A stretch of DNA of 64,000 bases from Elsinoe ampelina. Taxonomy: Eukaryota. Both the position numbers and the translations under genes were made by a program. The notes below the pieces were generated by a model that searched no databases, had not been told where the DNA came from, and was given only the letters and a program-made list of their open reading frames with translations. The stretch spans positions 138,677 through 202,676 of the forward strand of contig ML992517.1 in NCBI GenBank assembly GCA_010093995.1, given 5' to 3'. Below, piece after piece: positions 1 to 27,627 of the stretch (position 1 is its first letter; every line of letters begins with the position of its first letter).

Positions 1-566
1 CTACTAACGTCTAAAATTGGTACTTATCTTATAGATAAGAGCATAGAAGGTAGCTTAACTATTACTACTCTCTAAGAGCTCTATTGTACGCTAAAATGTA
101 TACCGAATGTTATTACTATCTAGTACTACTAGAAGCACCTTCTTCTCTAACCTTCTCCTATTAGAAATCGACCTAAATGTTCTTCTAACTATACCTTTAT
201 CTATTATAATACTCTCTAAGAGACTATATAAGTCTCTATAGCCTTTATTAACGAGAGCGAAGGCTTACTTAATAGCTTTAATTAAGTATATCGCTAGTTA
301 ATAAGAAGCAAATATAGGTGTAGCTACGGAGGGGAGAAGAAGAGGAGAGAGAGAGAAAGTAGAGGTAGAAGAGTAGCGGTATAGGTAGCAATTCGGTGTA
401 AGTATTACTCGCGATAGATAAGCCTTAGATCTTAGTTTACTTACGAGAGAGGCATACTAGAATTATACTTAGTTATAATTAGTTAGCCTAAACTAACACT
501 CGTAGAACTATAAAGTTTAACACGCTAAACTTTATCTCCTCTTAGTTTTATTATATACTTATTACG

Positions 567-1360
567 TAGTAATATAACTATATTACAAATACGATTCGTA
601 ATAACGCCTTAGTTCGCGCCCTCCGCTTATACCGACCTAAACGTAGGTATTAGTGTCTCTAGTATAACCTTTTCTCTTCTCTCTATCTAACCTTAATAAT
701 AGCTAGCTATCTATTATAGCAGATTCCCCGCCTAGTACACTATAATTATCTATTGCTATATATATAATAGCGACTCTAATATTTACTCCTACCTCGCCGT
801 TGCTACTACTTCTAATAACATTCTCTATACTAGCTATATTATGTTTATAGAATTAACTACTACTAGTACCTAGTAGTTACGCCGGAGTAAATCTATTATA
901 GTATACCTCTCTATCTTACCTACTACGCCGCTATAGGCTTAAGAGTGTATAAGGAGACTCTAATACCTCTTTCTCTCTCCTCGCTACTACTACTCTCTAT
1001 AGCTTCCTTTACACTAGCTATATATTATTAGTAGGATTAGCTACTATCTCTACCTAGTAGCTACGACTAAGCGAATCTATTACGGAGCATCTCCTAATCT
1101 TATAGACAGCGCTACTAGGGGTTCTAGTATATATAAAGAGGGTAGAGAAGCTAGCGTCTACTAGGAATTACTTACCTTATAGTATAAGAATGTTAAGGGG
1201 AGAATTATAGAGGAATAACTAGTATAACAAAGGGAAAGAGATAGAGGTATATCGTAGGTAAAGATACGTCTACTACCTCCTACTAGATAGTAGCTTACTA
1301 TAGAGAGCGTTATAGGTAGAGCTATATTAGTAGTATTTTCTTTTATAATTACTTTTATAG
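567..1360 (+). repeat. Direct repeat A, copy 1 (copy 2 at ~7730-8525)
   Basis: Colinear match, e.g. 'ataacgccttagttcgcgccctccgcttataccgacctaaa' vs 'ataacgccttagtttgcgccctttacttataccgacctaaa'; differences are mostly C/T and G/A transitions. Confidence 0.93.
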
Positions 1361-2099
1361 CGGGGTTTTGTTATTAGTAGCGCTTTATTATAACTTCCTT
1401 ACGTTAGCGATATACTTCTTTCTATGTAGATTATATACCTATTGCTTTAATTCCTCTCCTCTAACTAGTAAACAAAATCTCCTTGTCTAATATATATAAG
1501 TATACTATATATCTTTCTTTATTCCTTGTTATTTGTCTTATCTCCTATCTACTATAAAGACATTAAGGTTGTCACTTTACACGATAATACTCTTTATTAA
1601 ATAGTCTACTAGCTGTTTAAAGCATATATAACTTTATATATAGTACTAATATATAAGTGTTTAGTATAGTCAATTACTTTAATACTAATTTTCTACGATA
1701 ATTAGTACTTATAACATCCTCCGATAGCTGCGTTTTATTTACTTACCTAATTTACGCCCTATAATATTTATTAGTAGTAAACTAACTTATTTACTTTTAG
1801 TTCTAGTATCGACCTAATATTAGTAATTATTATATATTACTATTAGCACGTATAAAACATAGACTTAGTTAACCTAGTTTACTTTTAGGTCGAGGCCCGA
1901 ACTAGATCTTAGTTATAAGTATACTACTTACTTCGGTATACTATCTTAAATACAAATTTTATTATATTTAAGAAGTTACTACCTACTTTCTGCGTAGTAT
2001 TTTAACATTATACTAGGTAGTAGGTATTTATAATTACTACTATTTACTCTATAGCGCTTAACTTACTACGCTTAGTTCCTAGCTATATAATTTTAACTC

Positions 2100-3540
2100 C
2101 TCTAACCTTACCTATCTTATATAACGCCTTTACTAGTAGATATTCTTACACTTATTAAATACATATAATAGAACTATACTACTAAAGACGAAGAAGCTAA
2201 AGGTCGCTACTAAACCTATAGAAAAGATTCTACTTAATAACCTTATACTAGCTCTTATTAAAAATACACTTTGTAATAACAATGTTAGTAAGAAATCTAT
2301 CTAATTCTTCTTTAATTAGAATAACTAGTAATACTCTACTACGTTTGCAAGGATAAAGGAAATAATCTTAAAAGTCTTTATAGAATCTAATATTAAAATT
2401 AAGAAATAAGATAGAAGTAAGTTACGTAATTCTAAGGTACTTAAAGCATATCTTAAAATTAAAACTAGGCTACTAAATAGCATACCTAACGATTTCTAGC
2501 TCTTTATTAACTAACTAGATCGGAAAGATCTAGACTAGTTTAAGGAGAACTTATAGACTATAGTTAATATTAATAAGATAAAAGCTATATAGCGATTATT
2601 CTAAAATACTATATAATTAATAAAGGCAAATCTCCTGTCGGTTAAAAGGGAAAGAATAACGTTACTAGGCAAAGAAGGTACCTAGAGTCTATATCCTTTA
2701 GCTACCTTGTCTATATAGACACTAACGCTCTCCTAAGTAAGAACACTATTCTTAGAGAGATATATAACTTGTATAAAGATAGGCAATAAGAGATTAGATT
2801 TGTATATATAGCCTTATTATAGGATATTTAGCTTTAACTAGGGGCTAGTATCTAATTATGTCTAGATTAATATTAAATTTGCTACGATCTAGATTATAGA
2901 GATTATCGAAGTAGATACTATCCCGTATCTAATATTAAGAAAGAACATCCGTATCTATAACTTAATAAAGCCTAGTACTAGCAAGGACAAGAATTGTTAC
3001 GTTAATTACTACATCGGTAAGCTTAAGTAGATCCTTAATATTAGAGGTAATTACCTCTAACTCTACTAGCTTAACACGTATAACTCCGTATAAGTCTTCG
3101 CTATTAAAGACTCTTTCGATCTAGACGCTACTATTACTAAGTATATTACAACTCTTATTCCTAGTGCCTATAAGATCTTTCTCTATCTTACTTCTTCTAT
3201 AGCATCTATTAAAGATCTTCTCGACTTTATATAAAGTAAGTTTACCCCTTTCCTATTTATCTATATATACTAACACTTATAGATAACTCTTATTAATATT
3301 GTAGTAGCTAGCGACTACTTCCTATAGCTAAGGCTACTATAGAAAAGAACTTAGAAGTGTTTCTTACTCCTAAGAAGCTTTACTTTATAGATATTAATAC
3401 TAATAAGAAGCATAAAGGAGATTAGTAGAAAGAGAATATTATAATATAGAACGTTTAATACTTGCAATAGTAACTAAACTACTAAAGGCAAGAGCGGCAA
3501 TGCTACTATGTTTTATTTGCTATTATATTATTTATAAAAC
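2100..3540 (+). pseudogene. RIP-destroyed gene of unknown function, unit 1 (homolog at ~9380-10750)
   Basis: Long frame broken only by TAA/TAG; translated block IKDSFDLDATITKYITTLIP..KIFLYLTSS (~3100-3200) aligns with ILDNYDLRATIINYVNSLVK..IIFIYLIPS (~10335-10435). Boundaries approximate. Confidence 0.5.
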
Positions 3541-3949
3541 TGTTTAGTTCTTAACTAATAAAGTTTTATTTAGCTCGTTCTGCCCCTAAGAGGCTATAGC
3601 CCCTATAAATCCTACAATTTCCGTTATTGTTATTAGAAGTAAACTTACTCGATAGTTCTATAACTATAGCTAGACAGATTCTAACTGACTTAGCAACTTA
3701 GTTCGGAGTGTAGTTTTACTTTATATAGTTTTAGAAGAATATAGCTCCTTCTTCTCCGCTAGAAGAACATAGCCTATTTAGACTATAGTATATGCCGCTA
3801 AGGTGCTATCTATATTCCTACTACTTTAATAGCTTAAAGGATATTATATAAGCTACTATACACCTAAGGCCGGCTATCTATCTAGATAAATATAATCTCT
3901 CGAAGCTCTCTAATACCTCTCCTAAGTTTCACTTTATTACTAGTAACTT

Positions 3950-6060
3950 CCTATAGCTCGCCTAGTACGCTATAACGTATTAGAGCGAAGAGAGTAAGTC
4001 TAAGAAGATAACGACTTACTTCTACTAACACGAGATTAATATTAGTATTAAAAAAGTAATATGTTCTTAATATTATTAACAATAGAAACAAAGTAATACT
4101 ACTATAGATACAATAGACTAGAGCGTTTAATAATAAGCGAAATAAGTTAGTAGAATAGAATCTTGTCCCCTATTATAGTAGAAGTAATAGTATAAGTTTT
4201 AGTTCTATACTAAACTTAGAGTTAACTAAATTAAATAAGAATAGTATAGTGCTATAAAGAAGCGCGTAGGTGTTACTACTAATATAGTTATTAGGCTTTA
4301 CTCTTATATACTAGCGAGGTTTATATATAGTATACTTAGAAGTTAATAAAGAATTTCTACCGACTATTATTAGTTCTAGCTACTACCTTCCGATAAATAG
4401 TAGAGACACTTTAGATTAGGTTATACCTCCTAACTAAGTACAAACTTAAGTTAGTTTAGTTAGCCTAAAACTAGAGACAAACTTATTTTATATTAGAGTA
4501 GATAAGTCCTTTAAGGGAACGCTATAATACTTAGCTATCTTATACCTCTCCTTATTAGGTAATTGCTACTTAGTATTAGTATAGCTCTACCGACTATATA
4601 CGTAGGTTTAGTATTAAGCTTAATATTTAATATAAGGTTAATTATACTAAGAGAAAGAGATTAGATACCTACTACTTAACGAAGGTAGCTTTGACATAGT
4701 AGAGCTAGTTTCTATCTATAGGCGGTAAAGACGTACCTATTACAAAGAATAAGAGAGAATAAACTAGACATAATTTAACTCGATATTACTATATAATATA
4801 ATAAGAGACAGCTCTCTACCTATATAAAGGTAATATAAGAATAGTTAAAGTCTATCGCAGCTCTCTTTTTTGTAAATATAATAGTCACTTCTCGTTTCTA
4901 GTTCGAAATCTTCGTATTAGTCCCTATATAGATAGCTAGACTTCTATTTATTCCTCTTAATATGTATCTTAACCTAATTATAAAACATCTAGTAGCTACG
5001 CCTACTTTTATGTTTTATTAGGTTTAAGATATTCCTAACTAGAACTTTAAAGTTTTAATCGAGAATAGATATCTTATTTCTTTAGTAGTACTATATATAT
5101 AAATCGCTTTACGTATAGGGGAGTATACCTTAACTACGATTATAGAGACGCTATATAGGAGAGAGTAGCACGGAATAATATCTATATTCGACAAGTAAAA
5201 GGAACCTAGAGGTAATTATACTAGATGTTGTTATAAGCTTACTTTATTTACTCTACTACCCCGCTAGTATAGGAAGAGTAATAATATCGACCGACATTGT
5301 AGTAGAGGCTATAGACACTCCTTAGACTTTATACCCCGAGCCGAAGCGGTAGATAAGTATATAGCTAGCACTATACTAGATTAGAAATATAGGGCCTTTG
5401 TGTTATTATCTCTAAGATTATAGAATAGAAAGCCTATAGTTAGAAGACTAAGAGGTAGTAAGGGATTATTCGTGTATATAACTCTATAGCGCTAGTAGTA
5501 GCTATAGTAGTTAGTTCGACTTAGTTAGTCTAGTTTAGTTATTGCTAATAAGAGAGCTATATCTACAATAACTTAAGAGAATTCTAAATAGCTAAGCTAT
5601 TAGAATTAGTAAGGGCACTAAAGTTATTATTATCAATTATAGAGAGAAGTCTATAGTAAGCTACGTAGGCATTATTAGAGTAGCTATATTAAAGTAAACT
5701 TACTTCGAGAAAGCTATACTAGTTAGTTCGTAACTAGGAATAGTATATAGTTCTATAACAAGTAGAGTACTAGTACTTCTGCCTTAATAGTGTAACTTTA
5801 CTTAATACGAAGTTAGTATATAGATCTAATTATTATAGTAAGCTTCCGATAGTGCCTTAGAGAATATAATATCCGCTAGCGTAGATATAATAATAGCGTT
5901 TATGCTTAAGCTAACTATACTATTCTATCGGCTAAAGAAGTAAGTTAACTATAGCTACGATATACTAATAATAATATAGAAGGTTATATAAGATAATAAA
6001 GCGAAGCGGACAAACTAAAAGCGTAGTTGTTTAAACTAATAGAGAAGTAATAGCAAATTA
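3950..6060 (+). pseudogene. Diverged RIP relic homologous to the C-terminal part of the unit-2 SNF2-like helicase
   Basis: AFMLKLTILFYR...IIIxKVI (~5896-5990) aligns with AFIIKPTALFYR...LIIxKVI (~13230-13322); shared intron-like segment gttagt...ctaat (~5510 vs ~12847). Helicase motifs I and II are not recognisable in this copy. Confidence 0.5.
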
Positions 6061-6569
6061 TTAGTTTATCCTTGTTAAGATTAGTTAAGGGAATACTTAC
6101 AATTTTCACCTAAAAAGCACTAGTTTTAGTTTAGCGAACTAATCGACTACCCCTAACAGATTAACTATAGGTATAAACGACCTAACGTTATATAGCCGAG
6201 ACATCTTTATATACTACTATTACTATTTTTTCGTAGAGGCTATTTATAACTAACTTATTATAATACTAGTGACAAGTTAAGACACGAGATAGTAAGAGCT
6301 ATAAATTATTTACTAGCTAAAATTATTATACCTACGCGGCACTCTCTGTTTTATAATTGCTATAAAGGCCTCTACTAAGGACAATAGCGCGACAATAGCT
6401 AATTAAGTATAGCATTTAATATTATCCTTAAGTAAGAGACGGCTAATAAACTCTACTACCTAAATATATTAGAGTAAACTCTGTCTCGATGTGTCTAGTA
6501 CTATAGCGTAGATACAATTTTAGCTTTAGTTTACTAACGCTATATAATAGCTTAGTTCTATTAGCTCTA

Positions 6570-7039
6570 CTACGAATTACGGTAAATAAGAACTAAACTA
6601 AGTAACGAGGTAGAAACGATAGCCTATAGCTAGTATAGAGTATCCTTTCCCCTTTGTCTACTATATAGTATAGCATAGTAGATAATCCTCTTAGTCTCTT
6701 TACTAACCTCGACTCTCGACCTCTAGTACGTAGAATAGATAGTAATAGTAATAGTAGGCTCGATAGCGACATATATAAGGAAGAGAAGAGTATAGATAAA
6801 GTTATAATAGAAGATATACACAAGAAAGAGTAAGTAATTATAGTAAGTACAACTAGTAACACGTCTATAAGGCGGAGTACTAGAAGGTTATTCTTATTTA
6901 GTAGAGCTATATCCAATTATACTACGTTCGAGATAGTAACTAGTATACTAGCTAGTAGCGAGGAGTTAGTAATAGACATAGTTTATCCTTAGTTTACGTT
7001 AACTAATCTTATCTAGATCTCCCTAAGTCTATAATATAT
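6570..7039 (+). repeat. Direct repeat B, copy 1 (copy 2 at ~13915-14384); truncated 5' end of the Plavaka gene region
   Basis: Colinear ~470 bp match ending at 'gatctccctaagtctataatatat'; copy 2 continues into the Plavaka transposase, copy 1 breaks off. Confidence 0.92.
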
Positions 7040-7403
7040 CCTTCGCCTCGAGCGATTAATAAGATATAGCTTAGCTAGGGACTCTCGGCTCGGCGCTTTA
7101 ACGTTTAATAAAAGGCAAGCTACTAACTTAGATAGATAATTTTAATTTAAGTTAGGTCGTTATAGTAGAAGCGTCTTCTAGTAGGATATACTTACTAGCC
7201 TCTATATAATGTTCTAATAAATCTACTTCTACCTACGTAAGAGTACTAAAGATATATCTAAGTTACATATATAAAGGCTATAGTAGTCTAACTAATAGCA
7301 AAATAGTGTTTACTAGTAGGAAGCTTACTCGGCTTAAATTTAGTAGTACGAATTGTTACTTTACTCTATCTCTAGTATATTATATATAGTAGTAGTAGAG
7401 GGC

Positions 7404-7602
7404 AGCTAGTAGGGGATAGCTAGTAGTTTATTACGTCGAACTAATAATTTCTTAGTTCTCTCTCTTAAAGTTTAAAGATAATTTAAAATTTTAACCTAAC
7501 TATAGCTAGTAAGGGACGGCTAGTAGTTTATTACGTCGAACTAATAATGTCTTAGTCCTCTCTTTCGAAGTTTAAGAATAACCTAAAATTTCGACCTAAC
7601 TA
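7404..7602 (+). repeat. Tandem duplication, 2 x ~100 bp
   Basis: 'agctagtaRgggaYRgctagtagtttattacgtcgaactaataat...acctaacta' starts at 7404 and again at 7504. Confidence 0.9.
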
Positions 7603-7729
7603 GATTAAGCACTCTTTAAAACTTAATTACGTAATGCTATCTAATTATGTTCTTCTCTAAAGTTAGGTATTATATGTTTAGAGACTTACAATCTTTATAG
7701 CATTATAAACGTGTTATAAACTCTATTTA

Positions 7730-8525
7730 TAGCAACATAACTATATTATAGATACGATTTACTATAACGCCTTAGTTTGCGCCCTTTACTTATACCGACC
7801 TAAATATAGGTATTAGCGTCCCTAGTATAACCTTTTCTCTCCTCTCTATCCGACCTTAATAATAGCTAGCTATCTATTGTAGCGGATCCCCTACCTAGTA
7901 CACTATAATTATCTATTACTATATATATAATAGCGACTCTAACATTTACTTCTACCTTGCTATTACTACTACTTCTAATAGTATTCTCTATACCGGCTAT
8001 GTTATGTTTATAGGATTAACTACTACTAGTACCTAGTAGTTACGCCGGAGTAAATCTATTATAGTATACCTCTCTATCTTACCTACTACGCCGCTATAGG
8101 CTTAAGGGTACGTAAGGAGACTCCAATACTTCTTTCTCTCTCCTCGCTACTACTACCCTCTATAGCTTCCTTTACACTAGCTATATATTATTAGTAGAAC
8201 TAGCTACTATCTCTATCTAGTAGCTACGACTAAGCAAATCTATTACGGAGCATCTCCTAATCTTATAGATAGCGCTACTAAGAGTTCTAGCGTATGTAAA
8301 GAGAGTAGAGAAGCTAGTATCTACCGGGGATTACCTGCCTTATAGTATAAGAATGTTAAGGGGAGAATTATAGAGGAACAACTAGTATAACAAAGAGGAA
8401 AAGACAGAGGAATATTGTAGGCAAGGATATATCTACTACCTCCTACTAGATAGTAGCTTACTATAGAGGGCATTATAGGCAAAGCTATACTAGTAGTGTC
8501 CTCTCTTACTATTACCTTCCTAGTA
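7730..8525 (+). repeat. Direct repeat A, copy 2
   Basis: Colinear with 567-1360. Confidence 0.93.
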
Positions 8526-9379
8526 GAGCTAGGCGAGGAATAAAGCGTATTTGTAATTATATAGAATATACTATTAACTACCTATTCCGCGGAATATATA
8601 GCCTTTACTCTACTCTACTACTCGATTCTATATATAGCAATTATAAAGTCTAGATAATTAGATAGTAGTATATTACTTTCTTTATTCCTTTACTAGTATC
8701 TATAAGCTATACTATATGCTATATATACTATACTCTTTATTCCGCTATAGGCTACTAACTACCTTCTATTTATGTTCTATTACTATTGTCTTTCGTATAT
8801 AAATACTAGTTTCGCTATTAAAATATTGTTTAATTATTTTACGTTAACTGCTACTATATTCCCTCTATTTATTAGACTATTATCCCTTAAGATCTACCCT
8901 AAACATGACAATAGTATTCTTAGTACATATAGTATGTAAAATAAAAGGTAACTAAGTATACGGACTATAGTTACTCTTAGTTTAGTATCTAAACTAAGTA
9001 ATTTACTATTATATATATACTATATCTAGTATACTACTATATGCTTAGTTTAGGGCCCGACCTAAGTTAACTAAATTTAGGTTACTTCTCTCCTTAATTG
9101 CTTTAGTTTACTTTTATTTATACTCTCTTATATATAAATAAATAACTTATATAGCTCTCTAGTATTTCTTTAACCTCTTTAACTTCTCTTTTAAGTACTC
9201 TTTACTTAAATATCTCCTCTTTAGTTAAGTCTTAGTTAGGTATATATTACAAAGTATATAGATCTACTATATTAATAAATTCTCTCTTTAATTCTTCTAA
9301 ACTTATAAACACATAATACCTTTATAGAATCTTTTCTTTAATATCTACTATACCTACTTAACCTATTTACTAGATATTA

Positions 9380-10750
9380 TTCTAAGCTTTATTTATAGTA
9401 TATACTAAGCTTATAGACGTATATAATATGTCTAAGAATTAGCCTAATAGCGCTAGTATAGCTACTAATAATATTCCGCTCTATAAAAGACCTCCTATAG
9501 AAATTTAAGTATAGCTTAATAAAAACCTTAAGATTAAGAGATTCTTCCTTAAATTCTTTAACTAGGATAATAACTAGTACGCTACTACACGCGTAAGAGC
9601 GTAGGAAAAATATAAGAATACCTATATAGTTCTAGGACTTAAATATAAGAAACCTTAGGATAGTAATATTAATATAACTATAATTATAAATAATATCGAA
9701 ACTTCCCTATAATACTCTTAGGATAACTATACAAAGATCTTCTTTTAAAGACTATACTATTAAGACTAAGACTAGTTTAAGAGAAATATTAGAAACTATA
9801 ATAATATATCTAGTTATAATATTATTAAAGATTTTATCCTTACTATTAAGGCATAAGAGCTTAGGAATAAGAAGAATTAGACTAAAGTAGATAAGAAGGC
9901 TTATCCTAAGAAGTATATTAGAAAGCGCCTCTCCGCTACCTAGTCTAATAGCGAACTTTCTAAAAGATTAAAGACTTCTATACTTAGTAGCGGACTTGTA
10001 GGTATAGATATTAATTACTACACTAGTTAGCCTATATGTTAGTAGTAAATACTAGAGGACATATCTTATCTAGTCTAGAGTATTATTAACAAAACTATTA
10101 TTAACTTTATAATTATTAAGTAATTCGATATTAGCCTAGGCGTAATTATAAAGAGAGAATGTTTATGTCGTCTATAGGCGTTTAGTCTAAGAATTTTAAG
10201 GTCACATCTAGGGGATTATAATCTAAATATATATAGCCTTAATAATATTAGGCTATTTCTAAAGGAGAAGAAGTTAGTTAGTAATAATATTATTCTTATA
10301 TAGATAAATTATATAGAGCTATATAACATCCTACCTATCTTAGACAACTACGACCTACGTGCTACTATAATTAACTATGTTAACTCCCTAGTTAAAGGTA
10401 GTAATATAATTTTCATCTATCTTATACCTAGTATAGATCTAGTTAAGAAGCTTCCTAAAGAAGTACTTTATAAGTTTAACACTTAGTTTAACTTAGGTAT
10501 ATACTAATATAATTAGTTAACTCTCTTTAGTATTATAATAGTTAGAAGCTATTAACTCTAGTCTAGGAGGAAGAGAAAGAGGAACCTCTAGCCTCTCTAT
10601 CTCTAGCTAAGCGCCTACTACCGCGTAAATCTACCCCTAAGAAGTAACCTAGCCCTCTACTGCCTAATAAGAATAATACTACTATCGACTATTATCCTAC
10701 TTAGGTAATAGAAGACAAATACTATAAGTAATACTAAGATAGCAATTAGT
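9380..10750 (+). pseudogene. RIP-destroyed gene of unknown function, unit 2
   Basis: Translated similarity to 2100-3540; nucleotide echo 'gactagtttaag' at ~2533 and ~9770. Boundaries approximate. Confidence 0.5.
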
Positions 10751-10949
10751 ATCTCTTTATAATTATATCTAGTAAGGAGCAAGTAAGGTACTATATTCCG
10801 TTAGTCTCTAAGATACTATCTATACCTATCCTAGCGCTTATAACTTATATATTTAATAAGACTCTTAGTAGCTTAGACTTTGTTAAACTTTATACTATAA
10901 ACAATAATAATAATAATAAGTAAACTAGTTATAATCTAGCTAACTAAAG

Positions 10950-13435
10950 CTTTATCTCTATAGGCACTAGAATCGATTACTAGTCCGAAGAGTTCTAAGA
11001 GAGAGTCTATAACTTTATAGGCTTTAAGAAAGATATCTACTTACCAAACGCTAGTATATAGTGTTTTAGTTAGAACAAGAAGTATCTAGTTAAGGTAGTA
11101 TAGATATACTTAGCGCTTGTTATACTTAAGAAATACCTTAAAGGCTATCTAGTATTTATATTTATATATAAGATAGAATTTAGAAAGACTCTAATAGGAC
11201 TCTTCTTTCTCTTACTAATTCGGAACTTAAATAAAAAGGTTATCTAGGATGCTAACTATACTACTATACCTAAGGACAAGTAAAGTAAGTACTAGAAGGT
11301 AAAGACACTAGTTAACGAGCTATAGCTAGATATTGCTTCTATAGATACTATTAGCTATAATCTAATTATTAGCAAATTAAACGTAATAAAATAGTAGACA
11401 TAAGAGATATAGAAGTTTATACCTAATATAAAGGTCGTTCTATACTAGGGAAGAATATTCTAAGCTATATAAGAAGACAAGTATAGTAATATATATAATA
11501 TAGACACTTTAATTTGTAAAGAGAATCTGCCTATAGGCTACTACTAATAGGAGTCTTAGCCGATAGATAAGTCTAGTAAGCCTATCGACACTATTATAGT
11601 TTTATAACTAGTCGATATACGTAAGTAACACCCCCGGACCTTATAGATAAATAATTAGTTCTTCTTTACTACTTATAACACTATAATCTACTACTTCCTT
11701 AGTAAGAATAACATAAACACTAAGGATTAGAACTTTATTCCTAAGGGACAAGAGAGAAAGCTAAAGTCTACGCCTATAAACTAGGCCGCTATTATCTTTA
11801 ATAAGTTCTATTAGGTTACTAGCTAGAAGACGTAGACTTAGTTTTATCTAGGAATACTACCGGGGAGGCCTTTTATACTAGATATAAGTAAGACACTATT
11901 TATTAAGTACTTAAATATAGTAGCGTTCTTAATAGTAGCTATATATAAGAACTTTAGATTAGAAAAGCTCAATGTAAATAGAAGTAGAATAGGAGAATTT
12001 AACGAGAACTATATCTATAAATCTAAGTAGGAGCTAACTAAGGCTAAAGACAATAAATGTCAAGTAACACCGAAGACAATACTAGATAAGACTTAATAAG
12101 CTATCGCTAACAAGCTTAACTTCTAAATAGTATTAGACTATGCCTTCGTAATTGATAAATAGTATAAGGCGAATAACAACTCTAGTAAGTTTAATAAAAA
12201 GAGAGGTATATAGTTTATAGAAGAGATTATAGCAATAGTTAGTAAATAGGGCACTATCCTTACGAATATTCTTATTAAGATAAACATAAACTATATCTAG
12301 AAACCTTTTAATACTACTTCTAGTCTACTAGCTATTAGAGTTCTACTATATTCTACCTTCGACCTAGAGATCACTATCGAGGATAAGTATCTTTATAGTC
12401 TTATAAATATATAGAAGAAGATTAAACGGGATATAGATAAGAGTATATAAGAGACAATTAATAGGTAAAAGGATAAATCTAATAAGCCCGAAGTAACATT
12501 AGAGATAATTCTTAATAAGAAGACTAAGGAGCAAATACTAAGCCTAGTTATACCGCTACTACTTTTCTCTATATTTCTCGCTCTTATAGATATATTCTAG
12601 AATAATCCCGTAGTTATAGAAGAGTTTAGCAACTTTACTATTAAGTTTACCTATAAAATTATATATAACTCCTCGGAGATAGTGCTATAGTAGTACATAG
12701 ACAAGATCTATACTAGTTCTTAGATAAAGGTCCTTTATAGTGTTATTTCTAAGATTATTAAGTAGAACGTCTCCTATTTAAAGGAGCTAAAGAGGTAAGT
12801 AATTGTCTATATATTTATACTGTTAGTGCTAGTAGTCGCTACGATAGTTAGTTTAGTCTATTTAGTCTATTTAGGTTATTACTAATAAGGGTATAGTATC
12901 TAAAATAGCTCGAGAAGCACCTAGATGGTAAAGTAATTAGAATTAATAAGGATACTAATATAGTTGTTGTCTACTATAGAATAATATCTATACCTACCTA
13001 TATAGATATCGTTAACGTAGCTATATCTAATAATACATTTATTAAACCTAATAGGCCGGAAGGCTTAAGGATCTTAATTGCCTAGGGTAGAGCTATTAAG
13101 ACTAGTCTTAATCTAAACTACTTCGACACTATAATCTTGCTTGATATAGCGTTAGTGTTATAATCTATCCTTTAGTATCTAGCTTAGGTCTATAGGAATA
13201 TTAAGTCTTAGAAAGCTAACTATATAGAGGCGTTTATAATAAAGCCGACAGCTCTATTCTATAGGCCTCTAGAATAGCTTAATAGTAGATAGAGTAGGCT
13301 ATTAATAATATAGAAGGTTATCTACGAGGAAATAGAGAAATAGAGAATAGAGATCTAGAAACTTTAATAAGCTATAGCAAAGAAGAACATAATTATTGTA
13401 GATAATAATTAAGATTACTAGATAATAGTCTAACT
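10950..13435 (+). pseudogene. RIP-inactivated SNF2-like superfamily-2 helicase/ATPase
   Basis: 11167-11190 'tat aag ata gaa ttt aga aag act' reverts by transitions only to HEMGFGKT (motif I). In the same frame 11791-11811 'att atc ttt aat aag ttc tat' reverts to IIFDEFH (motif II). 13101-13115 TSLNL reverts to TGLNL (motif V), followed by a motif VI-like xYLAxVYR. An intron-like segment at ~12847 explains the frame change. Confidence 0.75.
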
Positions 13436-13914
13436 ATATTACCTAAAAATATAATTCTTTAGTTTAGCGGACTAATTTAGTTCCCTGTACATGTTAAACT
13501 ATCTTTTAGATTACCTAATATAATATAGCATCTAAACATTTCCTACTTTCTACTATTACTAAAATTTAGCTAGCTAACTCTAACTACGAATTTAGATCTT
13601 AAGTAATAAACATAGACATACTAAGGCGAATTAGTAAATGCTTAGCCTATAGGAAGATTATATAATCTAGTAGAGGCCTTATCTAATATCTACTATATTA
13701 CTAGAGGAGAGAGCTACTAATAAGTAACATAGCATAAGTCTTACTAGAGTGACGTAGCAATAGACATCTACGTAGAGACAACGCTAGTAATAATCCTTGC
13801 TTATTTAATAAGGGAGAGCGCTTACTGTCTAATAAAGGCTAACGAGGTAGTATTACTAGTAATATATAACATAGTCTACTAATGCTAAATAACCTACTAG
13901 TCTACTTTACTCCG

Positions 13915-14384
13915 CTACGAATAATAGTAACTAAGAATTAAACTAAACACTAGAGTAGAAATAAAAGTCTATAGCTAGTAGAGAGTATCCTTCCCCCTTT
14001 ACCTACTATATAGTATAGTATAGCGGATAATCCTCTTAGTCTCTTTACTAACCTTAACCCTTAACCTCTAGCACGTAGAATAGATAGTAATAGTAATAGT
14101 AGGCTCGATAGCGACATATACGAGGAAGAGGAAGGCATAGACAAGGTTATAATAGAAGGTATATATAAGGAAGAGTAAGTAATTACAGTAAGTACAACTA
14201 GTAGCACATCTATAGGGCGAAGTACTAGGAGGTTGTCCTTATCTAGTAGAGCTATATCTAATCGTACTACGTTCGAGATAGCTACTAGTATACTAGCTAG
14301 TAGCGAAGAGTTAGTTATAGATATAGTTTATCCTTAGTTTGCGTTAACTAATCTTGTCTAGATCTCCCTAAGTCTATAATATAT
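13915..14384 (+). repeat. Direct repeat B, copy 2
   Basis: Colinear with 6570-7039. Confidence 0.92.
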
Positions 14385-17070
14385 ATACTAACACTAACGA
14401 TAAACTAAATTATAATTAGTTAGGCGAGACTTAACTAAAGGAAGCCTTTATTAGCGGTATAGACGTAGGTCTTGCCTAGTAGCTTATAAAGGAGAAACTT
14501 AGTAGAGCTATAATTACGTAATTGCTTAAAGACCTACGTATATAACCTCTAGTAAAGAGCCTTAGTTAGCAAACTACAAATAAACTAATAGAGAAGATAG
14601 AGAATTTAGATACGGGCAAGGGTATTAATAGCTAGCAGACCTTAAGCTTTATACTAAACACTAATTATAGGCCTAAAAGACATATATTCTAGTATCTAGA
14701 TATTCTTATAGCGATACGCTTCTTGCTTAGCTATTACAGTTTCGTAGTAGACATAGACTATAGCCTATATAGAGTCTTTATAGAAGCTATTAAGAGTAAG
14801 CTACTACGACAAGTGTACACCGAAATAGTAAGTAGTAACTAGTAGTAGAACGTATAAAAGCGACTTAGGATACTAGGGGCTACTATTATTCTATTAATTG
14901 TCGCGAGTAATTAGACCTAGGTAATAAACTATTAAGGAGATCTTATAGCATATACTATCTATCTATTATTAGGCAACCTAAAGGTAGAAGCACGTAATAG
15001 TAACTACTAGCTAGGGTAGTTACTAATCGGCTTACTTTCTATTATTAAAGATAGTAGTAATATTGTTAAGGAGAAGATCTACTACGCTTATATAAAGAAA
15101 ATCTTTAATACTATTATTAATTACTACTTAAGAGAGAGTAAAACAATCTCCTATATAAATAAAAAGAGGTAGAGGTACTTCTCTATACTTGCCGCTATAC
15201 CTACGAATTACATCGAATAGGTTACTATAACTAGTATAAAGTTACTATATTATTATATAAGTTGCCTAATCGGTAAGGACAAAAGAGAGAACCTAGTAGT
15301 TACTACGCTATTTCGAACTTACTACTCTATATAGCGATAATAGTACTTATAGAGAGAAGTATACGAGAGTTAGTAGTAGAGCAAGAAGATAGATATAAGC
15401 TCTTAGGTTTATATAGTTAATTACTTTACGTAGGATCTTCCGTATACTAATATTTACTACGCAATAGTACTAGATATTCTATACTAACTTCTTAAAGGCG
15501 TTTTAATACACGTCTTATACTAGACTCGAAAATTGCTCTAGGATTTAATACCTATATAGAGATTACTACGGTATATAAAGGCTAGAGAGACTATATAGTA
15601 AATAGGCTACTAGCGCTTAGTAAAGAAGATTATACTTAATATTATTAATAAGTGTTTCGACAGTATACTAGTATTTCCTAGCATCCAACACTTCTTACAC
15701 TACTTAGCTATTAAGTAATAGACAGGTTAAGAGTAGAAGAGTATTATACGCTAGATACTTCTAGTATTTATACTACTACTCGAGAAGGTTAAGGTACCTT
15801 AAGCTATTAAGTTTATATATGTACTAGTTAACTTTATATTACTAGTAAACTATAAGACCTATAATAACGATATACTCTAGTATATTAACCTTGCGCTCTT
15901 TAGGATAAACAAGTATAAAGAAACCTTTTAGGCCTATTATAGTAATAGGAAAGAAGAAAGCGACTTTAACTTTCCGAAATAGCACTTAATAATATATTTT
16001 TTAAAGGCTATTTATAATTTTAGAGTAGTTACTAGCCTCGATTCTAATTATTTAAAGCATAATTATATATACTTTATTAAGGACGCCTTTAAACTTATAA
16101 ACAAGAAGGCTAGATAGGAAGACTAGGTTACTACTTATAACACTAAAATAGTAAACATATTAGTAGTATTTAATAACCCCTCGAAGTTAGTTAGGCTATT
16201 AGCTACTAAACTAATTAAGATCTAAAGTACGCTAGTTAGCGTAAGTAATGTAGTAAATGTCACTTCTTAGTTTAGCTAGCCTAGCGCTAAGAGAGAAGCT
16301 ATATAGCGTATAGTAAGAGAACTAGAGGCGCTTATTAATATACTACCTAGGCTATTGCTATAGCAAGTAATAGTAGTATTTGTCCGCGAGGCTCGTTAAG
16401 GTATAGCTAATATAGACTCTAACTTAAGAACTAAATACTCTAATTAGTTTAATGCTAAACTAGATCCCGATAGACTTAAACTAGATTCTTCCTAGGTAAG
16501 TAACCTCCGCGTTAAGTTCTACTATTCTTTAAAGTATAGAAAACTATCCGACTATAATCCTAATAATCCTAATACGGACGAATAAGACTTTATCTAGTGT
16601 ATAACTAAATAGCAGAGAATATATAGTAATAAGAGGTAAGACTAGCTCTAGGTGTAAGAATAGATAACAAACGATAAAGGCACTAACGGAGTATTACCTA
16701 ATAGCCTATAAGGTAAGTTACTAGCTTATATTATATTTATAATAACTATAGAGAATAGCTTCTAGTCTAGTAGATCGAGCTAGCGTTAACGCCTATACTA
16801 CATAGGAGCGCTAGTAGATCTATATTAGCCTACTTAGCCGGATAGAGTAGCTAATCAAGAGTATAGTATAACACTAATTAAGCCTTAGACAAATCGACGC
16901 GCGCGAGCTAGACGAAACACTCTTACTAGTAGGCGTATCTACTCTACCTTATAAATCTACTATAGTATCTATGTTATACTAGTAAATAAAATAAGGCTAT
17001 ATAGCTAGATATACATTAATAACATAGCCGACTTTAATATATATAACATGCTATAGAATAAGTTATAGAA
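13990..17070 (+). mobile_element. RIP-inactivated Plavaka-family transposase (CACTA/Mirage/Chapaev-related DNA transposon)
   Basis: De-RIPped motifs in the expected order: VYTEMVSGNWWW (14813-14848, tag tag tag = WWW), GATIIPLIVASDQT..GD..AYTIYLSLGNL (14876-14980), AA..TDYIEQ (~15190-15220), PDILHQLLKG (~15470-15500), FNFPKWH..FG..IKDAFKLTNKK (~15965-16107), C-terminal YINN.ADF (~17010-17035). Start approximate. Confidence 0.85.
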
Positions 17071-17099
17071 GTCTAAATAGCTCTACCTAGCTAAGGCTT

Positions 17100-17830
17100 T
17101 AAAACGAGAGAGGTTAAGATCCCTAGGCGTAGTTAGCAAGCATAGTAGGCATTAACAAAGCTAGAGTACTTCTTTCGTAGCTAGAATAATTATCTCTTAC
17201 ATCGACGGCCTAACGCTTAGGTATACTTAGGTTAACTACTAGACTATGTTAGGTAGGCGAGTTATAATAACTTCTATAGGTATTACTCTAACTAGTTAGT
17301 TTACACCTATATATTATTAGGTTAGTCCCTAAACTATATAGAGTTTATAGCCTAAGGTGCCTTATATAGTTTTTACGCTAAAGAGTTAGTCTATTCCTTT
17401 ACTAATTATAATAGCTTAGGAAATTATAGTAAGGTATTATAGAAGTTAGTCTTTAAGATACTTAAGACATACCTTAAGTATTTAGTAACAGCAGTAAAAG
17501 GCTTAGGTTAGTAAGTTGTTTTTAAGTTAGTTTTACTAACGGAGTTAGCGGTCTAAGAGGAAAGTTTATTCTCTATAATAAGTTTACTAATAAGACTCCG
17601 ATATAGACGATAGTACTTTACTCTATTTACTATTACATTATAGAGATCTACTTAATACTACTAGAGTAGTTACTAAGGACTTATTCCTTTCTATCTAATA
17701 GACAAGATCTATAACAATACTAGCTTAGAAGACCTGCTAGAGAACATTCTTGTTAATCTTTATATATATACTATACGCGGGAAACGAGTTAAGGAAGAAG
17801 CTACTCTTTAGTATAGTAAGTAGTTTCTTT
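17100..17830 (+). pseudogene. RIP relic, possibly a fungal BTB/POZ-type protein (copy 1)
   Basis: LIPFYLIDKIYNNTSLEDLLENILVNLY (~17680-17765) resembles the IY.nT...pLr..lvd motif that follows fungal BTB domains; paralog at 19013-19310. Confidence 0.35.
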
Positions 17831-18772
17831 CTTATTCTTTAAAGCCTCCTCCGTATCTATGTAGGTTATAAGTATTTCCTTATAAGATTATTAGTATATA
17901 ATATATATATAATAAATCCTATCTATAAGATTATATACTAGATTATCCTACACGCGCTATTACCGCAACTACTACTTAGTAGTAGTAATAGTAGAGCGGC
18001 AGGATATAGTAGGAAAAAGTGTTATTATATCTATCTCTAAGAGGGGGATACTCTCTTTCTCCTCTATATCTTTCTCCTTGCTCTCTACTATAGTAAGGTA
18101 TACTATAACTAAAGCTACTACTACTGCTCCCTCTATAACTACTATTGCTCGTACATGGCTATAACTATAGGTTATTACTAGAAGCTTAGTACGCGTCGGA
18201 GTAACTTTATCTTTAATATATAGTAATAAAGTGCTATAATCTTAACCCGGACACCGTCTCTATTACCTCTCTAACGACTACTATAACTAGCGCTAAGAGC
18301 TAGTAAGGTAAGAAGCGTACTACCTCTACCTTTACTAGTGTCTATAGCCGTACTAGTATTAAGCTCGGTAAGGTAGAGAAGAAGAGTAAGAAGCGAAAGA
18401 AGCCTCTTATTATTACTAATTACCTCCTTGCCGATAACCTTGTAGATAGGTAGTTAGAGTAGATCTTAAACTTCCTAGAAAGAGTATTTACTTCTCTACT
18501 ATAACTGCCTTCGAGCTATCGTTTAGACTACTATATCCTTAGTACTATCTCCGGGGCTACTTAGACACTATACCGATGTTCGTTAGACCTTACTTTTCTA
18601 GGTAGTCTTTTATAGCTCTAGAATTATCCTTCTAGTAGGTATACTATTCCGTGTTAGTAAACGAGGAATTAGCTTAGCCTAAACTAAATGTCTATTACAT
18701 TTCCTATACCTATTTATATTAGTATTAATCTTCTTAGAATAGGCTATAGCCTTACTACTATAGCTACTATTA

Positions 18773-19012
18773 NNNNNNNNNNNNNNNNNNNNNNNNNNNN
18801 NNNNNNNNNNNNNNNNNNNNNNNNNNNNNNNNNNNNNNNNNNNNNNNNNNNNNNNNNNNNNNNNNNNNNNNNNNNNNNNNNNNNNNNNNNNNNNNNNNNN
18901 NNNNNNNNNNNNNNNNNNNNNNNNNNNNNNNNNNNNNNNNNNNNNNNNNNNNNNNNNNNNNNNNNNNNNNNNNNNNNNNNNNNNNNNNNNNNNNNNNNNN
19001 NNNNNNNNNNNN
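18773..19012. other. Assembly gap (N run)
   Basis: Run of n. Confidence 1.
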
Positions 19013-19310
19013 CTTATCTTTAGAGACATCTAACACCTTAATAGACAACTAAGTAGAGACGATAAAATAGAGTTAGAATAAGTATATATTAGTTTAGAGT
19101 TTTATGTCGCAAGCTAGAGAATAAGGCGTATAATGTCTACTTTCCTATTATAGTAAAAGCGCTTCTATACCGAGCTCTAATAATATAGAGTATATACTTC
19201 CCCTCTATCTAGTAGATAAGATCTATAATAACACTAGCTTAGAGGGCCCTCTCTAGAAGATGCTTATTAATTTCTATATCTATTCTAGTCGTAGTAAGTA
19301 GAGCGTTTAT
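19013..19310 (+). pseudogene. RIP relic, possibly a BTB/POZ-type protein C-terminal part (copy 2)
   Basis: LPLYLVDKIYNNTSLEGPLxKMLINFY from 19197; nucleotide similarity to ~17684-17765. Confidence 0.35.
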
Positions 19311-19324
19311 CTAATCTAAGGCAC

Positions 19325-19396
19325 GTACGGTGCGTTTAACTAAAATTAGGTAGGTATAGTACGTTTAACTAAATTTAGGTAGGTATAGTGCGTTTA
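19325..19396 (+). repeat. Tandem repeat, 29 bp x 2.5
   Basis: gtaYRgtRcgtttaactaaaWttaggtag units start at 19325, 19354 and 19383. Confidence 0.9.
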
Positions 19397-19489
19397 TAGC
19401 GACCTAACGTAGTTAAACTTAGTTTAATACGGAGAAACCTAATATTCTAACTCTCTACGCTTAGGACTTTCGTAACGAAGTATAACATT

Positions 19490-21355: not shown

Positions 21356-21560
21356 TAATTACAACTAGTAAGATAAGAGGTTAATTACGTCTATTCGTTA
21401 AGATATCGAGACTTAGAAGAAGAAGAAGAAGAAAACTAGTATATAAAGCATGTATAATATTAAGAGCGAAGCGGCCGGAAGCCTAGGCTATAATGCCGAG
21501 ATCACGTAACTAATCTAAACTAGATCCTAACTGAATCTAGTTCGTATCTATCTTATATTA
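21356..21560 (-). repeat. 3' LTR of the gypsy element
   Basis: taattacaactagtaagataagagg...tatta, matching 27426-27627; the ta...ta ends fit RIPped TG...CA. Confidence 0.92.
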
Positions 21561-27425: not shown

Positions 27426-27627
27426 TAATTACAACTAGTAAGATAAGAGGTTAATTATGTCTATTTATTAAGATATTAAGACTTAGAAGAAAAAGAAGAA
27501 AACTAGTATATAAAGCATATATAATATTAAGGGCAGAGTAGCTAGAAGCCCGGGCTACGATGCTAAGATTATATAACTAATCTAAACTAGATCCTAACTG
27601 AATCTAGTTCGTATTTATCTCGCATTA
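27426..27627 (-). repeat. 5' LTR of the gypsy element
   Basis: Matches 21356-21560, one gaa unit shorter. Confidence 0.92.

What the first reader, a model, noticed from the sequence alone, without database searches (positions are those of the whole stretch)
7040..19482. Candidate large multi-gene DNA transposon: Plavaka transposase linked to an SNF2-like helicase and further genes
Seen: in one orientation, conserved block A, an unknown gene, an SNF2-like helicase relic (motifs I, II, V and VI recoverable by transition-only reversions), a full-length Plavaka transposase relic and BTB-like relics, all equally RIPped. The order block A / unknown gene / helicase homolog / Plavaka 5' end recurs at 567-7039. 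Established: RIP hits repeated DNA, and Plavaka transposases are CACTA/CMC-related fungal transposases. Inference: these genes were amplified together as a >10 kb element, so the helicase is a standing component or cargo. I do not know of a described ascomycete element with this architecture, and it has no DUF3435 captain, so it is not obviously a Starship. It is invisible to ORF callers.
Basis: partly seen in the sequence, partly recalled or inferred. Interest (0 to 1): 0.8.

Follow-up and report, generated by a model that had tools for sequence, protein, structure and literature searches.

The report
Dead Plavaka transposon carrying SNF2 gene
In a mutation-scrambled, AT-rich stretch of a fungal genome lie two partial copies of a many-copy Plavaka-type jumping gene that appears to carry, just upstream of its transposase, a chromatin-remodeller-like (SNF2) ATPase gene, an accessory gene I found no report of in this transposon group.

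Summary
Window 1-28 kb is heavily RIP-mutated repeat DNA. A full-length Plavaka transposase domain lies at 14576-15514, + strand (Pfam PF18759, E 2.9e-23).

Ordinary searches find no helicase. A RIP-aware profile test that I built does. The SNF2 C-terminal lobe scores 60.3 at 12945-13196, against 35.5±3.6 for 300 shuffles. An SNF2-type Walker A (11158) and a DExH box (11791) sit upstream on the same strand.

A RIP-aware coding track shows near-continuous + strand coding from about 9.2 to 17.1 kb. The order block A / unknown ORF / SNF2 / Plavaka 5' end recurs at 567-7039. The two interiors are anciently diverged, while the flanking blocks differ by transitions only.

Many diverged copies exist in the source organism's sequencing contigs.

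Not confirmed:
- BTB relics.
- Element ends and target-site duplications.
- The right-hand coordinate, which runs across an N gap into a copia-like element.

Verdict: probably a two- or three-gene Plavaka element with an SNF2 accessory gene, a new variant of a known kind. Physical unity of the element is inferred, not shown.

The parts
567..1363 (+). Block A, copy 1. Probably a non-coding 5' region. Contains an internal repeat of about 184 bp (772-898 / 956-1082).
   Evidence: 89% identical to 7714-8518. Differences are transitions only. Boundaries come from the alignments.
1900..3400 (+). Copy 1 of the 'unknown gene' (a coding relic with no recognised domain).
   Evidence: Strong + strand RIP-aware coding signal in frame pos%3=1. 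tblastx match 2308-2406 to 9554-9652. Pfam finds nothing at E<=10.
3400..6100 (+). Copy 1 of the SNF2-like relic. It is more decayed and the support is only suggestive.
   Evidence: A motif-III-like stretch at 4301-4474 scores 35.2. The plain translation reads RSGQTKSVVV at about 5999-6030, and the HSP at 5957-6034 scores 39.0. Neither score is significant on its own (shuffles 35.5±3.6). The region is collinear with copy 2.
6527..7039 (+). Block B, copy 1 (5' part of the Plavaka gene region). This copy ends abruptly at 7039.
   Evidence: 86% identical to 13872-14384, with almost only transitions. The sharp common end is shown. The coding frame is consistent with copy 2.
7040..7729 (+). Sequence upstream of block A in copy 2, with two tandem units of about 100 bp (7404-7502 and 7504-7602). 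At least its right part belongs to the repeated unit.
   Evidence: Repeat family D5. Sequencing contigs from other copies join about 7711/7718 to block A (tables 5 and 5c). It is not similar to 1-566.
7730..8526 (+). Block A, copy 2.
9200..10600 (+). Copy 2 of the 'unknown gene'. It may be the N-terminal part of the SNF2 protein.
   Evidence: RIP-aware coding signal on the + strand in frame pos%3=2. Pfam finds nothing at E<=10.
10600..13550 (+). SNF2-family ATPase relic, copy 2. Walker A (motif I) lies at 11158-11190, DExH (motif II) at 11791-11811, and the C-terminal lobe (motifs IV-VI) at 12945-13196.
   Evidence: The RIP-aware regex hit for motif I is unique in 6 frames x 28 kb (0.166 expected). 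DExH lies in the same frame. Lobe 2 scores 60.3 against shuffles of 35.5±3.6 with a maximum of 52.7 (n=300), while reversed-profile decoys reach at most 36.7. It is the top hit under three other RIP parameter sets. The coding track gives frame 1 up to about 12.85 kb, then frame 0.
13872..14384 (+). Block B, copy 2.
   Evidence: Coding signal in frame pos%3=1 over 13.5-14.4 kb.
14300..17100 (+). Plavaka DDE transposase gene relic. The Pfam domain lies at 14576-15514.
   Evidence: PF18759, E 2.9e-23, 83 bits, profile positions 4-321 of 325. The coding track in the same frame (pos%3=2) runs from 14.3 to about 17.1 kb.
17100..18772 (+). Unassigned 3' region. It is either the element's tail or the start of the neighbouring copia-like element. 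The claimed BTB relics were placed about here.
   Evidence: No Pfam hit. Coding signal is patchy, with 18.08-18.56 kb in the same frame class as the copia-like ORF. The region ends at the N gap 18773-19012.

Best explanation
The span holds two adjacent, co-oriented, RIP-killed members of one multi-copy Plavaka (EnSpm/CACTA-related, DDE) DNA transposon family. Copy 1 is cut off at 7039. Copy 2 runs from at least 7730, and perhaps from 7040, to about 17-18 kb.

SHOWN: each unit carries, 5' to 3' on one strand, a non-coding leader (block A), an open-reading region of unknown function, an SNF2-family ATPase gene and the Plavaka transposase gene.

INFERRED:
- The transposase cut and pasted the whole unit.
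- The SNF2 ATPase was a standing accessory gene. It was most likely used to open chromatin or to counter silencing at the element, by analogy with the TET/JBP and methylase/oxygenase accessory genes of other Plavaka elements.
- After amplification, RIP destroyed every copy and left an AT-rich block.
- The two copies share transition-only flanks around anciently diverged interiors. This suggests chimeric elements made by recombination or template switching between two subfamilies that both carried the SNF2 gene in the same place.
For: - Plavaka domain: E 2.9e-23.
- SNF2 lobe 2: 60.3 half-bits at 12945-13196. This is the best of 6 frames x 28 kb, with Gumbel p about 7e-5 per frame. It is robust to RIP parameters, scoring 54-68.
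- SNF2 motif I with at most 1 mismatch: 1 hit observed against 0.166 expected. A DExH box lies in the same frame 200 codons downstream.
- Lobe 1: 41.9, p 0.011 per frame.
- Coding track: the best + frame leads through about 9.2-17.1 kb, though in about a third of the windows the minus strand scored within the decision margin. Frames agree with the Pfam Plavaka hit. The track also matched strand and frame for the copia-like and gypsy Pfam hits, so 3 of 3 positive controls passed.
- Same order in copy 1. A RIP-aware codon alignment of the two interiors scores 563 against shuffles of 228±17.
- The interiors differ by at least as many transversions as transitions (36 ts / 51 tv in HSP 3101-3327). 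Blocks A and B differ almost entirely by transitions (no transversions in their central windows). Two old SNF2 alleles therefore sit in one backbone.
- Sequencing contigs: in run X1, 12,322 contigs lie on 1-18700 at 80% identity or more, and 9,090 of them are below 99% identity. All 30 bins are covered. Differences are 1,448 transitions against 25 transversions.
Against: - No terminal inverted repeats, target-site duplications or empty sites were found or could be tested.
- Standard tools see no SNF2: Pfam at E<=10, phmmer against 1.84 billion representatives, and PDB sequences.
- The positive result rests on an in-house scoring scheme with a profile built from viral and bacterial SNF2 proteins.
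- Lobe 1 is only marginal after correction for six frames (0.064).
- The collinear-chain statistic is weak for copy 2 (225 against 163±26, maximum 223) and null for copy 1.
- The distance from motif I to motif II is about 205 codons, roughly twice that in the profile.
- Copy 1 shows no lobe 2 signal at the position that the DNA alignment predicts.
- The block is a nest of transposons (copia-like and gypsy next door), so adjacency by nesting is possible.
- The tool itself warns that contig depth is not copy number.
Confidence: 0.58

Rival explanations
1. This is a mosaic of separate repeats. The SNF2-bearing sequence and the Plavaka element are different repeat families that came to lie side by side by nested insertion. 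The pair was then copied by a segmental or tandem duplication, or by recombination, before RIP.
For: - The AT-rich block is demonstrably a transposon nest (copia-like fragment; gypsy element with LTR-like repeats at 21344-21553 and 27418-27620).
- The two copies are direct neighbours with a period of about 7.2-7.3 kb.
- No ends are defined.
- Copy 1 stops inside the Plavaka 5' region, so full linkage is seen only once.
Against: - A recent duplication cannot give transversion-free flanks around interiors with about 24% transversions.
- Two diverged SNF2 versions sit in the same slot of the same backbone.
- Same-strand coding signal persists from the SNF2 gene into the transposase gene, dipping to near background around 13.3-13.7 kb.
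- Every bin of 1-18700 is covered by diverged contigs to a similar summed depth, 8,000-12,650 in X1. That figure is not a copy number.
Confidence: 0.25
2. The SNF2 sequence is captured host DNA, a transduplicated gene carried passively by a Plavaka element in the manner of Pack-type elements. It is not a working accessory gene.
For: - Plavaka and other CMC-type elements do pick up foreign genes (TET/JBP transfers between transposon lineages, PMC12730594, abstract and sections read through 'find').
- No function can be tested in a RIP-dead copy.
Against: - The relic spans the whole ATPase core in order, from motif I to motif VI, over about 2 kb with strong coding-frame signal.
- It is present in both anciently diverged versions, which suggests it was kept for a long time.
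Confidence: 0.1
3. The SNF2 signal is an artefact of permissive RIP-aware scoring on AT-rich DNA. The upstream coding region is some other, unrecognised transposon gene.
For: - All standard searches are blank.
- A spurious 49.8 hit appears in a tandem-repeat region at 20953-21024.
- Lobe 1 and the chain statistics are weak.
Against: - Lobe 2 lies 6-8 sd above shuffles under four parameter sets, and reversed-profile decoys reach at most 36.7.
- The hit falls on the strand and in the frame that the independent coding track assigns.
- A unique SNF2-style Walker A and a DExH box lie in order upstream.
- Motif VI is readable in the plain translation of copy 1.
Confidence: 0.07

Closest known systems
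Plavaka DNA transposons of fungi (PlavakaA/B, PMC12730594; Tuber Plavaka, PMC12581995; family defined by Pfam PF18759)
   Same: The transposase domain matches over nearly its whole length. It is a multi-copy DNA element. Some described Plavaka families carry one accessory gene (TET/JBP).
   Different: - Here the accessory gene is an SNF2-family ATPase with an unknown N-terminal region, not TET/JBP.
- In the passages of PMC12730594 that I read, TET/JBP-bearing Plavaka came from Agaricales. In Ascomycota only Helitron and IS3EU carried TET/JBP.
- The termini and 2-3 bp target-site duplications given in those papers (TGT..ACA, CATCA..TGATG, CATAC) could not be identified here.
Giant Plavaka elements of red algae with accessory genes PAG1-3 (bioRxiv 10.1101/2025.02.11.637652; abstract and passages read)
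   Same: A Plavaka transposase together with several co-carried genes thought to act on DNA or chromatin. These are large elements of 17-19 kb that reached high copy number.
   Different: The cargo differs: an N6-adenine methylase plus SET protein, a ParB-like plus 2OG-oxygenase protein, and one unknown. Pfam finds no methylase or SET domain here. The host kingdom is different. This element is about 9-11 kb.
Helicase-encoding cut-and-paste transposons AcademH and KolobokH (named in PMC10799480; the Kojima 2020 title was seen only in the reference list of PMC8290104, and the paper itself is not held)
   Same: A DDE-type DNA transposon that also encodes a superfamily-2 helicase-like protein. They occur in fungi.
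   Different: The transposase superfamily differs (Academ or Kolobok, not Plavaka/CMC). I could not read which helicase family they carry.
Starship elements (DUF3435 tyrosine-recombinase 'captain')
   Same: Large, gene-carrying fungal mobile DNA.
   Different: No DUF3435 hit in any Pfam scan run. A DDE Plavaka transposase is present instead, and the element is much smaller.
JBP2 of kinetoplastids (a TET/JBP hydroxylase domain fused to an SNF2 ATPase; recalled, not from any call)
   Same: An SNF2 ATPase preceded on the same strand by a sizeable N-terminal coding region, in a transposon group known to carry TET/JBP genes.
   Different: No TET/JBP signal was found (Pfam blank). No RIP-aware TET/JBP profile was available, so this is only a lead.

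Membership tests
Plavaka transposon (CMC/EnSpm-related) | Transposase with the Plavaka domain (PF18759) | tested here: met
   E 2.9e-23, 83 bits against a cut-off of 26.3, profile positions 4-321 of 325, at 14576-15514 on the + strand.
Plavaka transposon (CMC/EnSpm-related) | Short terminal inverted repeats (TGT..ACA, CATCA..TGATG or CATAC) and 2-3 bp target-site duplications | tested here: inconclusive
   No inverted repeat of 48 nt or more in the purine/pyrimidine alphabet involves this element. Short RIP-blurred motifs cannot be told from background, and no genome is held for empty sites.
Plavaka transposon (CMC/EnSpm-related) | Intact DDE catalytic residues and C(2)C / H(3-4)H motifs | not tested
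   The gene is riddled with RIP stops (408 stops and N-gap codons read as X in that frame over 7040-19482). Residue-level calls were not attempted.
SNF2 family ATPase (SF2) | Pfam SNF2_N / Helicase_C hit in the read-through translation | tested here: not met
   No family at E<=10. There were 0 phmmer hits in 1.84 billion representatives and 0 in PDB sequences.
SNF2 family ATPase (SF2) | Walker A of SNF2 type and DExH box, in order and in one frame (consensus patterns recalled from memory) | tested here: met
   RIP-aware match at 11158 with 1 mismatch. It is the only hit in 6 frames x 28 kb, against 0.166 expected. DExH lies at 11791 in the same frame; 2.0 such hits are expected window-wide, so it counts only through its position.
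SNF2 family ATPase (SF2) | C-terminal lobe with motifs IV-VI matching an SNF2 profile | tested here: met
   RIP-aware score of 60.3 at 12945-13196 against 300 shuffles (mean 35.5, sd 3.6, maximum 52.7). Decoys reach at most 36.7. Scores of 54-68 under three other parameter sets. The profile was built from 74 viral and bacterial SNF2 proteins.
SNF2 family ATPase (SF2) | N-terminal lobe (motifs Ia-III) matching an SNF2 profile | tested here: inconclusive
   Score 41.9, p 0.011 per frame and 0.064 after six frames. About 100 extra codons lie between motifs I and II.
BTB domain genes (claimed relics) | BTB/POZ domain match | tested here: not met
No RIP-aware BTB profile was available.
Starship | DUF3435 tyrosine recombinase at one end | tested here: not met
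   Not found in any Pfam scan. Minus frames of 18773-20999 were not scanned, and RIP could hide it.
Giant Plavaka with PAG1-3 (red algae) | PAG2 with DNA methylase (PF01555) and SET (PF00856) domains | tested here: not met
   Neither family appears in any Pfam scan of the span. RIP lowers sensitivity.

The most novel reading that the evidence does not exclude
The 9.2-13.5 kb region encoded one long accessory protein in which a DNA-base-modifying or other chromatin-directed N-terminal domain was fused to the SNF2 motor. One possibility is a TET/JBP-like oxygenase, giving a JBP2-like layout. Fungal Plavaka elements would then have carried their own chromatin remodeller to escape heterochromatin, DNA methylation or RIP-type silencing. 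That would be a transposon counter-defence not yet described for cut-and-paste elements in ascomycetes.
Probability: 0.12. Interest if true: 0.75.

Novelty: new variant of a known kind. Interest (0 to 1): 0.5.

Why it matters
Accessory genes of DNA transposons (TET/JBP oxygenases, methylases, SET proteins) are increasingly read as tools against host silencing. An SNF2 chromatin-remodelling ATPase kept inside a Plavaka element would add a new type of tool. It would also extend multi-gene Plavaka elements to a RIP-active, presumably ascomycete, fungus.

There is a practical point too. ORF callers, Pfam and phmmer all miss the relic. A simple RIP-aware scoring scheme recovered both the domain and the reading frames, so similar cargo may be hidden in other AT-rich fungal isochores.

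Tried and rejected
- **Whole genome:** none is held, so there was no copy census and no empty sites.
- **The search for homologous proteins on read-through translations:** one search was my slip (wrong frame). One search used the right frame and gave 0 hits, because the word prefilter fails on RIPped sequence.
- **SNF2 region by standard searches:** phmmer against representatives gave 0 hits. PDB sequences gave 0 hits. Pfam at E<=10 gave 0 hits.
- **First RIP-aware scoring (maximum over ancestral codons):** it went into the linear regime and was discarded.
- **Pairwise RIP-aware alignment to RapA, RecG and Mfd:** no signal.
- **Collinear-chain statistic:** weak or null.
- **Posterior-against-posterior alignment of the two copies:** it shows homology but cannot separate frames.
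- **Long terminal inverted repeats:** none found.
- **Nested-insertion model (copy 2 inside copy 1):** no continuation of copy 1's transposase was found downstream.
- **Joint 16724->8451 in the contigs:** looked at and left uninterpreted.
- **RNA:** no RNA holder was listed. The RNA-guess runs X3 and X6 laid nothing except one 34-nt piece.
- **Organism identification:** the atlas gave no useful taxa, and an exact look-up of 2 ORFs found neither.
- **Earlier findings:** none on this genome. The eight 'Plavaka' notes shown (of 10 matches) concern Naegleria and have no bearing.
- **Rfam on 1-29000:** nothing.
- **Papers not held:** Iyer et al. 2014, the original Plavaka description, and Kojima 2020 on AcademH. 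Either may bear on the novelty claim. Supplementary tables of PMC12730594 and of the bioRxiv preprint were not seen.

Full report
**Setting.** The first 28 kb of the window have about 30% G+C and the rest about 53%. The AT-rich part has the classical RIP signature in every segment tested. TpA/ApT is 1.81-2.07 and (CpA+TpG)/(ApC+GpT) is 0.18-0.23, against 0.56 and 1.26 in the gene-bearing flank. That flank carries ordinary eukaryotic housekeeping genes, including RNase H1, 6-phosphofructo-2-kinase, a P450, an M1 peptidase and coproporphyrinogen oxidase. No whole genome is held. The span contains an assembly gap of 240 N at 18773-19012.

**What standard tools see.** I read all frames through with X at every stop.
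- In 7040-19482, Pfam finds only the Plavaka transposase domain: PF18759, E 2.9e-23, profile positions 4-321 of 325, nt 14576-15514, + strand.
- No SNF2_N, Helicase_C, BTB or DUF3435 hit appeared. This covers the + frames of 1-7039, 7040-19482 and 19013-28500. It also covers the minus frames of 1-7039, 7040-13300, 13301-18772 and 21000-27900.
- The candidate helicase region (10300-13401) gave nothing in Pfam at E<=10, in a phmmer scan of 1.84 billion representative proteins or against PDB sequences.

**Neighbours.** The neighbouring repeats are visible to Pfam. A copia-type SH3_retrovirus domain lies at about 20719-20916 on the + strand. A Ty3/gypsy element lies on the minus strand at about 21.3-27.6 kb, with RVT_1, RT_RNaseH and SH3_Tf2-1 domains. 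It is flanked by direct repeats at 21344-21553 and 27418-27620. The AT-rich block is therefore a nest of several transposons, and the finding's right end (19482) lies inside or beside the copia-like element.

**Repeat structure.** Self-comparison confirms the claimed recurrence but changes its meaning.
- Two blocks are nearly identical between the copies. Block A is 567-1363 against 7730-8526 (89%). Block B is 6527-7039 against 13872-14384 (86%). Both differ essentially by transitions only.
- Similarity ends sharply at 7039/14384.
- The 5.1-5.3 kb between the blocks is collinear but far more diverged. It shows 61-68% identity with as many transversions as transitions, or more. For example, there are 36 transitions and 51 transversions in 3101-3327 against 10335-10561.
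- A RIP-aware codon-level alignment of the two interiors scores 563 against 228±17 for shuffles. They are therefore homologous along their length.
- RIP makes only transitions. The interiors must have diverged long before the event that gave both copies the same flanks.
- The simplest reading is two old subfamilies whose members exchanged ends by recombination or template switching. That step is an inference.

**RIP-aware test for the helicase.** The standard tools fail here, so I modelled RIP explicitly.
- For every codon with its two flanking bases, I computed the posterior over pre-RIP amino acids. The model used context-dependent C>T and G>A probabilities and a codon prior taken from the window's own GC-rich genes.
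- I scored that posterior against profile columns.
- The profiles were built with hmmbuild from 75 real SNF2 proteins: E. coli RapA, three phage proteins and 71 ORFs from 73 of the 80 IMG/VR loci returned.

The results were as follows.
- **C-terminal lobe (motifs IV-VI).** Its best match in six frames of 28 kb is at 12945-13196 on the + strand, with 60.3 half-bits. For 300 codon shuffles the mean is 35.5, the sd 3.6 and the maximum 52.7. Reversed-profile decoys reach at most 36.7. The approximate Gumbel p is 7e-5 per frame.
- **Robustness.** The same place is the top hit under three other RIP parameter sets, scoring 54-68. Plain, non-RIP-aware scoring does not find it.
- **Motif VI detail.** In the alignment, the key positions of motif VI fall on TAG/TAA/TGA or TAT codons, which single RIP-type transitions would produce from Gln, Arg and His codons.
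- **N-terminal lobe.** Its best match is also on the + strand, at 11101-11502. It scores 41.9, with p 0.011 per frame and 0.064 after six frames.
- **Independent regex test.** The consensus patterns were recalled from memory. An SNF2-style Walker A is matched with one mismatch at 11158. This is the only such hit in all six frames, against 0.166 expected. A DExH box is matched at 11791 in the same frame.
- **Copy 1.** Evidence is weaker. There is a motif-III-like stretch at 4301-4474. A motif VI is legible even in the plain translation (RSGQTKSVVV, about 5999-6030).
- **A spurious hit.** The only other high lobe 2 score, 49.8 at 20953-21024, lies in a 12-bp tandem-repeat array and is taken as spurious.

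Several results count against the SNF2 reading.
- The collinear-chain statistic is weak for copy 2 and null for copy 1.
- Motifs I and II are about 205 codons apart, roughly twice the profile distance.
- Copy 1 lacks a lobe 2 signal where the DNA alignment predicts it.
- The method is my own, and its only benchmarks are the controls given here.

**Reading frames.** A second RIP-aware measure is the likelihood of each frame under the coding prior. It reproduces the strand and frame of all three Pfam-anchored controls: Plavaka, the copia-like element and the gypsy element.
- On the + strand the best frame leads from about 9.2 to about 17.1 kb. In about a third of the windows the minus strand scored within the decision margin.
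- The frame (position mod 3) is 2 for 9.2-10.6 kb (the 'unknown gene').
- It is 1 for 10.6-12.85 kb (SNF2 motifs I-II).
- It is 0 for 12.8-13.55 kb (SNF2 motifs IV-VI).
- It is 1 for 13.5-14.4 kb (block B).
- It is 2 for 14.3-17.1 kb (the transposase).
- The extra codons between motifs I and II lie in coding-like sequence of the same frame. They look like an inserted domain rather than a foreign insertion.
- Copy 1 shows the same order with a weaker signal.
- Beyond 17.1 kb the signal is patchy. From 19.26 kb it belongs to the copia-like ORF.
- The claimed BTB relics have no support.

**Copy number.** Two DNA contig sets of one sample of the source organism hold about half of the sampled words of 7040-17000.
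- Laid on 1-18700 at 80% identity or more, run X1 gives 12,322 contigs. Of these, 3,232 are at 99% or more, 3,493 at 95-99%, 4,217 at 90-95% and 1,380 below 90%.
- All 30 bins are covered.
- Differences are 1,448 transitions against 25 transversions.
- The whole stretch, including the SNF2 part, is therefore present as many RIP-diverged copies.
- The tool warns that summed depth is not a copy number, so I use this only qualitatively.
- Contigs from other copies join the sequence just left of block A (about 7711/7718) to block A. The repeated unit therefore starts left of 7730.

**Interpretation.**
- The Plavaka relic is certain.
- The SNF2-family relic directly upstream on the same strand is likely (about 0.85-0.9).
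- That both belonged to one mobile unit is the best reading (about 0.6). Two anciently diverged SNF2 versions occupy the same slot between the same flanking blocks. Coding signal continues on one strand into the transposase gene. The whole stretch is repeated.
- It remains unproven without termini, target-site duplications or a copy census.
- The main rival is chance adjacency inside a transposon nest.

**Known context.** Plavaka elements are CMC/EnSpm-related DDE transposons with short termini and 2-3 bp duplications.
- Sources: PMC12730594 (abstract and passages) and PMC12581995 (one passage, on Tuber, an ascomycete).
- Some Agaricales families carry a TET/JBP gene (PMC12730594).
- Red-algal giant Plavaka of 17-19 kb carry three accessory genes (bioRxiv 10.1101/2025.02.11.637652, abstract and passages).
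- Helicase-bearing cut-and-paste elements (AcademH, KolobokH) are named in PMC10799480.

**Literature searches.**
- The search for Plavaka with helicase returned 10 papers, and I opened 4.
- Plavaka with SNF2 returned 1 paper, which uses the term in an unrelated way.
- Kyakuja/Plavaka/ATPase was searched.
- SNF2/CACTA/transposase/accessory was searched.
- SNF2/DNA transposon/fungal/giant transposon was searched.
- None of the papers I opened describes a Plavaka element with an SNF2 gene.
- Iyer et al. 2014, Kojima 2020, Repbase and Dfam could not be consulted.

I therefore rate this as a new variant of a known kind, of moderate interest.

Noticed in passing
window 21344-27620 (minus strand): A RIP-degraded Ty3/gypsy LTR retrotransposon. 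It has RVT_1, RT_RNaseH(_2) and SH3_Tf2-1 domains and is flanked by 85%-identical direct repeats at 21344-21553 and 27418-27620, about 6.07 kb apart.
   Followed up: partly
window ~19260-21000 (+ strand): A copia-like pol fragment. It has an SH3_retrovirus domain at about 20719-20916 (E 3e-6) and a strong + strand coding-frame signal. It appears to be cut off by the gypsy insertion.
   Followed up: partly
window 21009-21163 and 23125-23272: An array of 12-bp tandem repeats (unit like TCTAGTTTAGAA) with an inverted partner about 2.1 kb away (21068-21125 / 23199-23256; 79% complementary). These may be subterminal repeats of a small DNA transposon or part of the gypsy LTR region. The array gave a spurious 49.8 hit in the SNF2 lobe 2 scan.
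   Followed up: no
window 18773-19012 and 32840-32924: Two runs of N (assembly gaps). A short repeat, 17680-17784 similar to 19194-19298 (60% at protein level), straddles the first gap.
   Followed up: no
window 7357-7390: A 34-nt stretch matches, with 4 differences, the inside of a 2,547-nt high-depth contig present in both the DNA runs and one RNA-guess run. This is probably a chance or low-complexity match to an abundant RNA or organellar sequence.
   Followed up: no
window 11394-11749 and 11486: About 100 extra codons lie between SNF2 motifs I and II, in coding-like sequence of the same frame. Five contigs from other copies diverge from the window right after 11486, which suggests an indel polymorphism among copies at this spot.
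   Followed up: partly
window 1-566: The sequence left of block A in copy 1 is unrelated to the sequence left of block A in copy 2 (7040-7729), yet it is itself covered by many diverged contigs. Copy 1 is therefore broken or interrupted at about 567 by another repeat.
   Followed up: no
window 16716-16760: An intron-like string (GTAAGT ... TATAG) lies near the 3' end of the transposase coding signal. A contig joint 16724->8451 with 14 extra letters was reported there and left unexplained.
   Followed up: no
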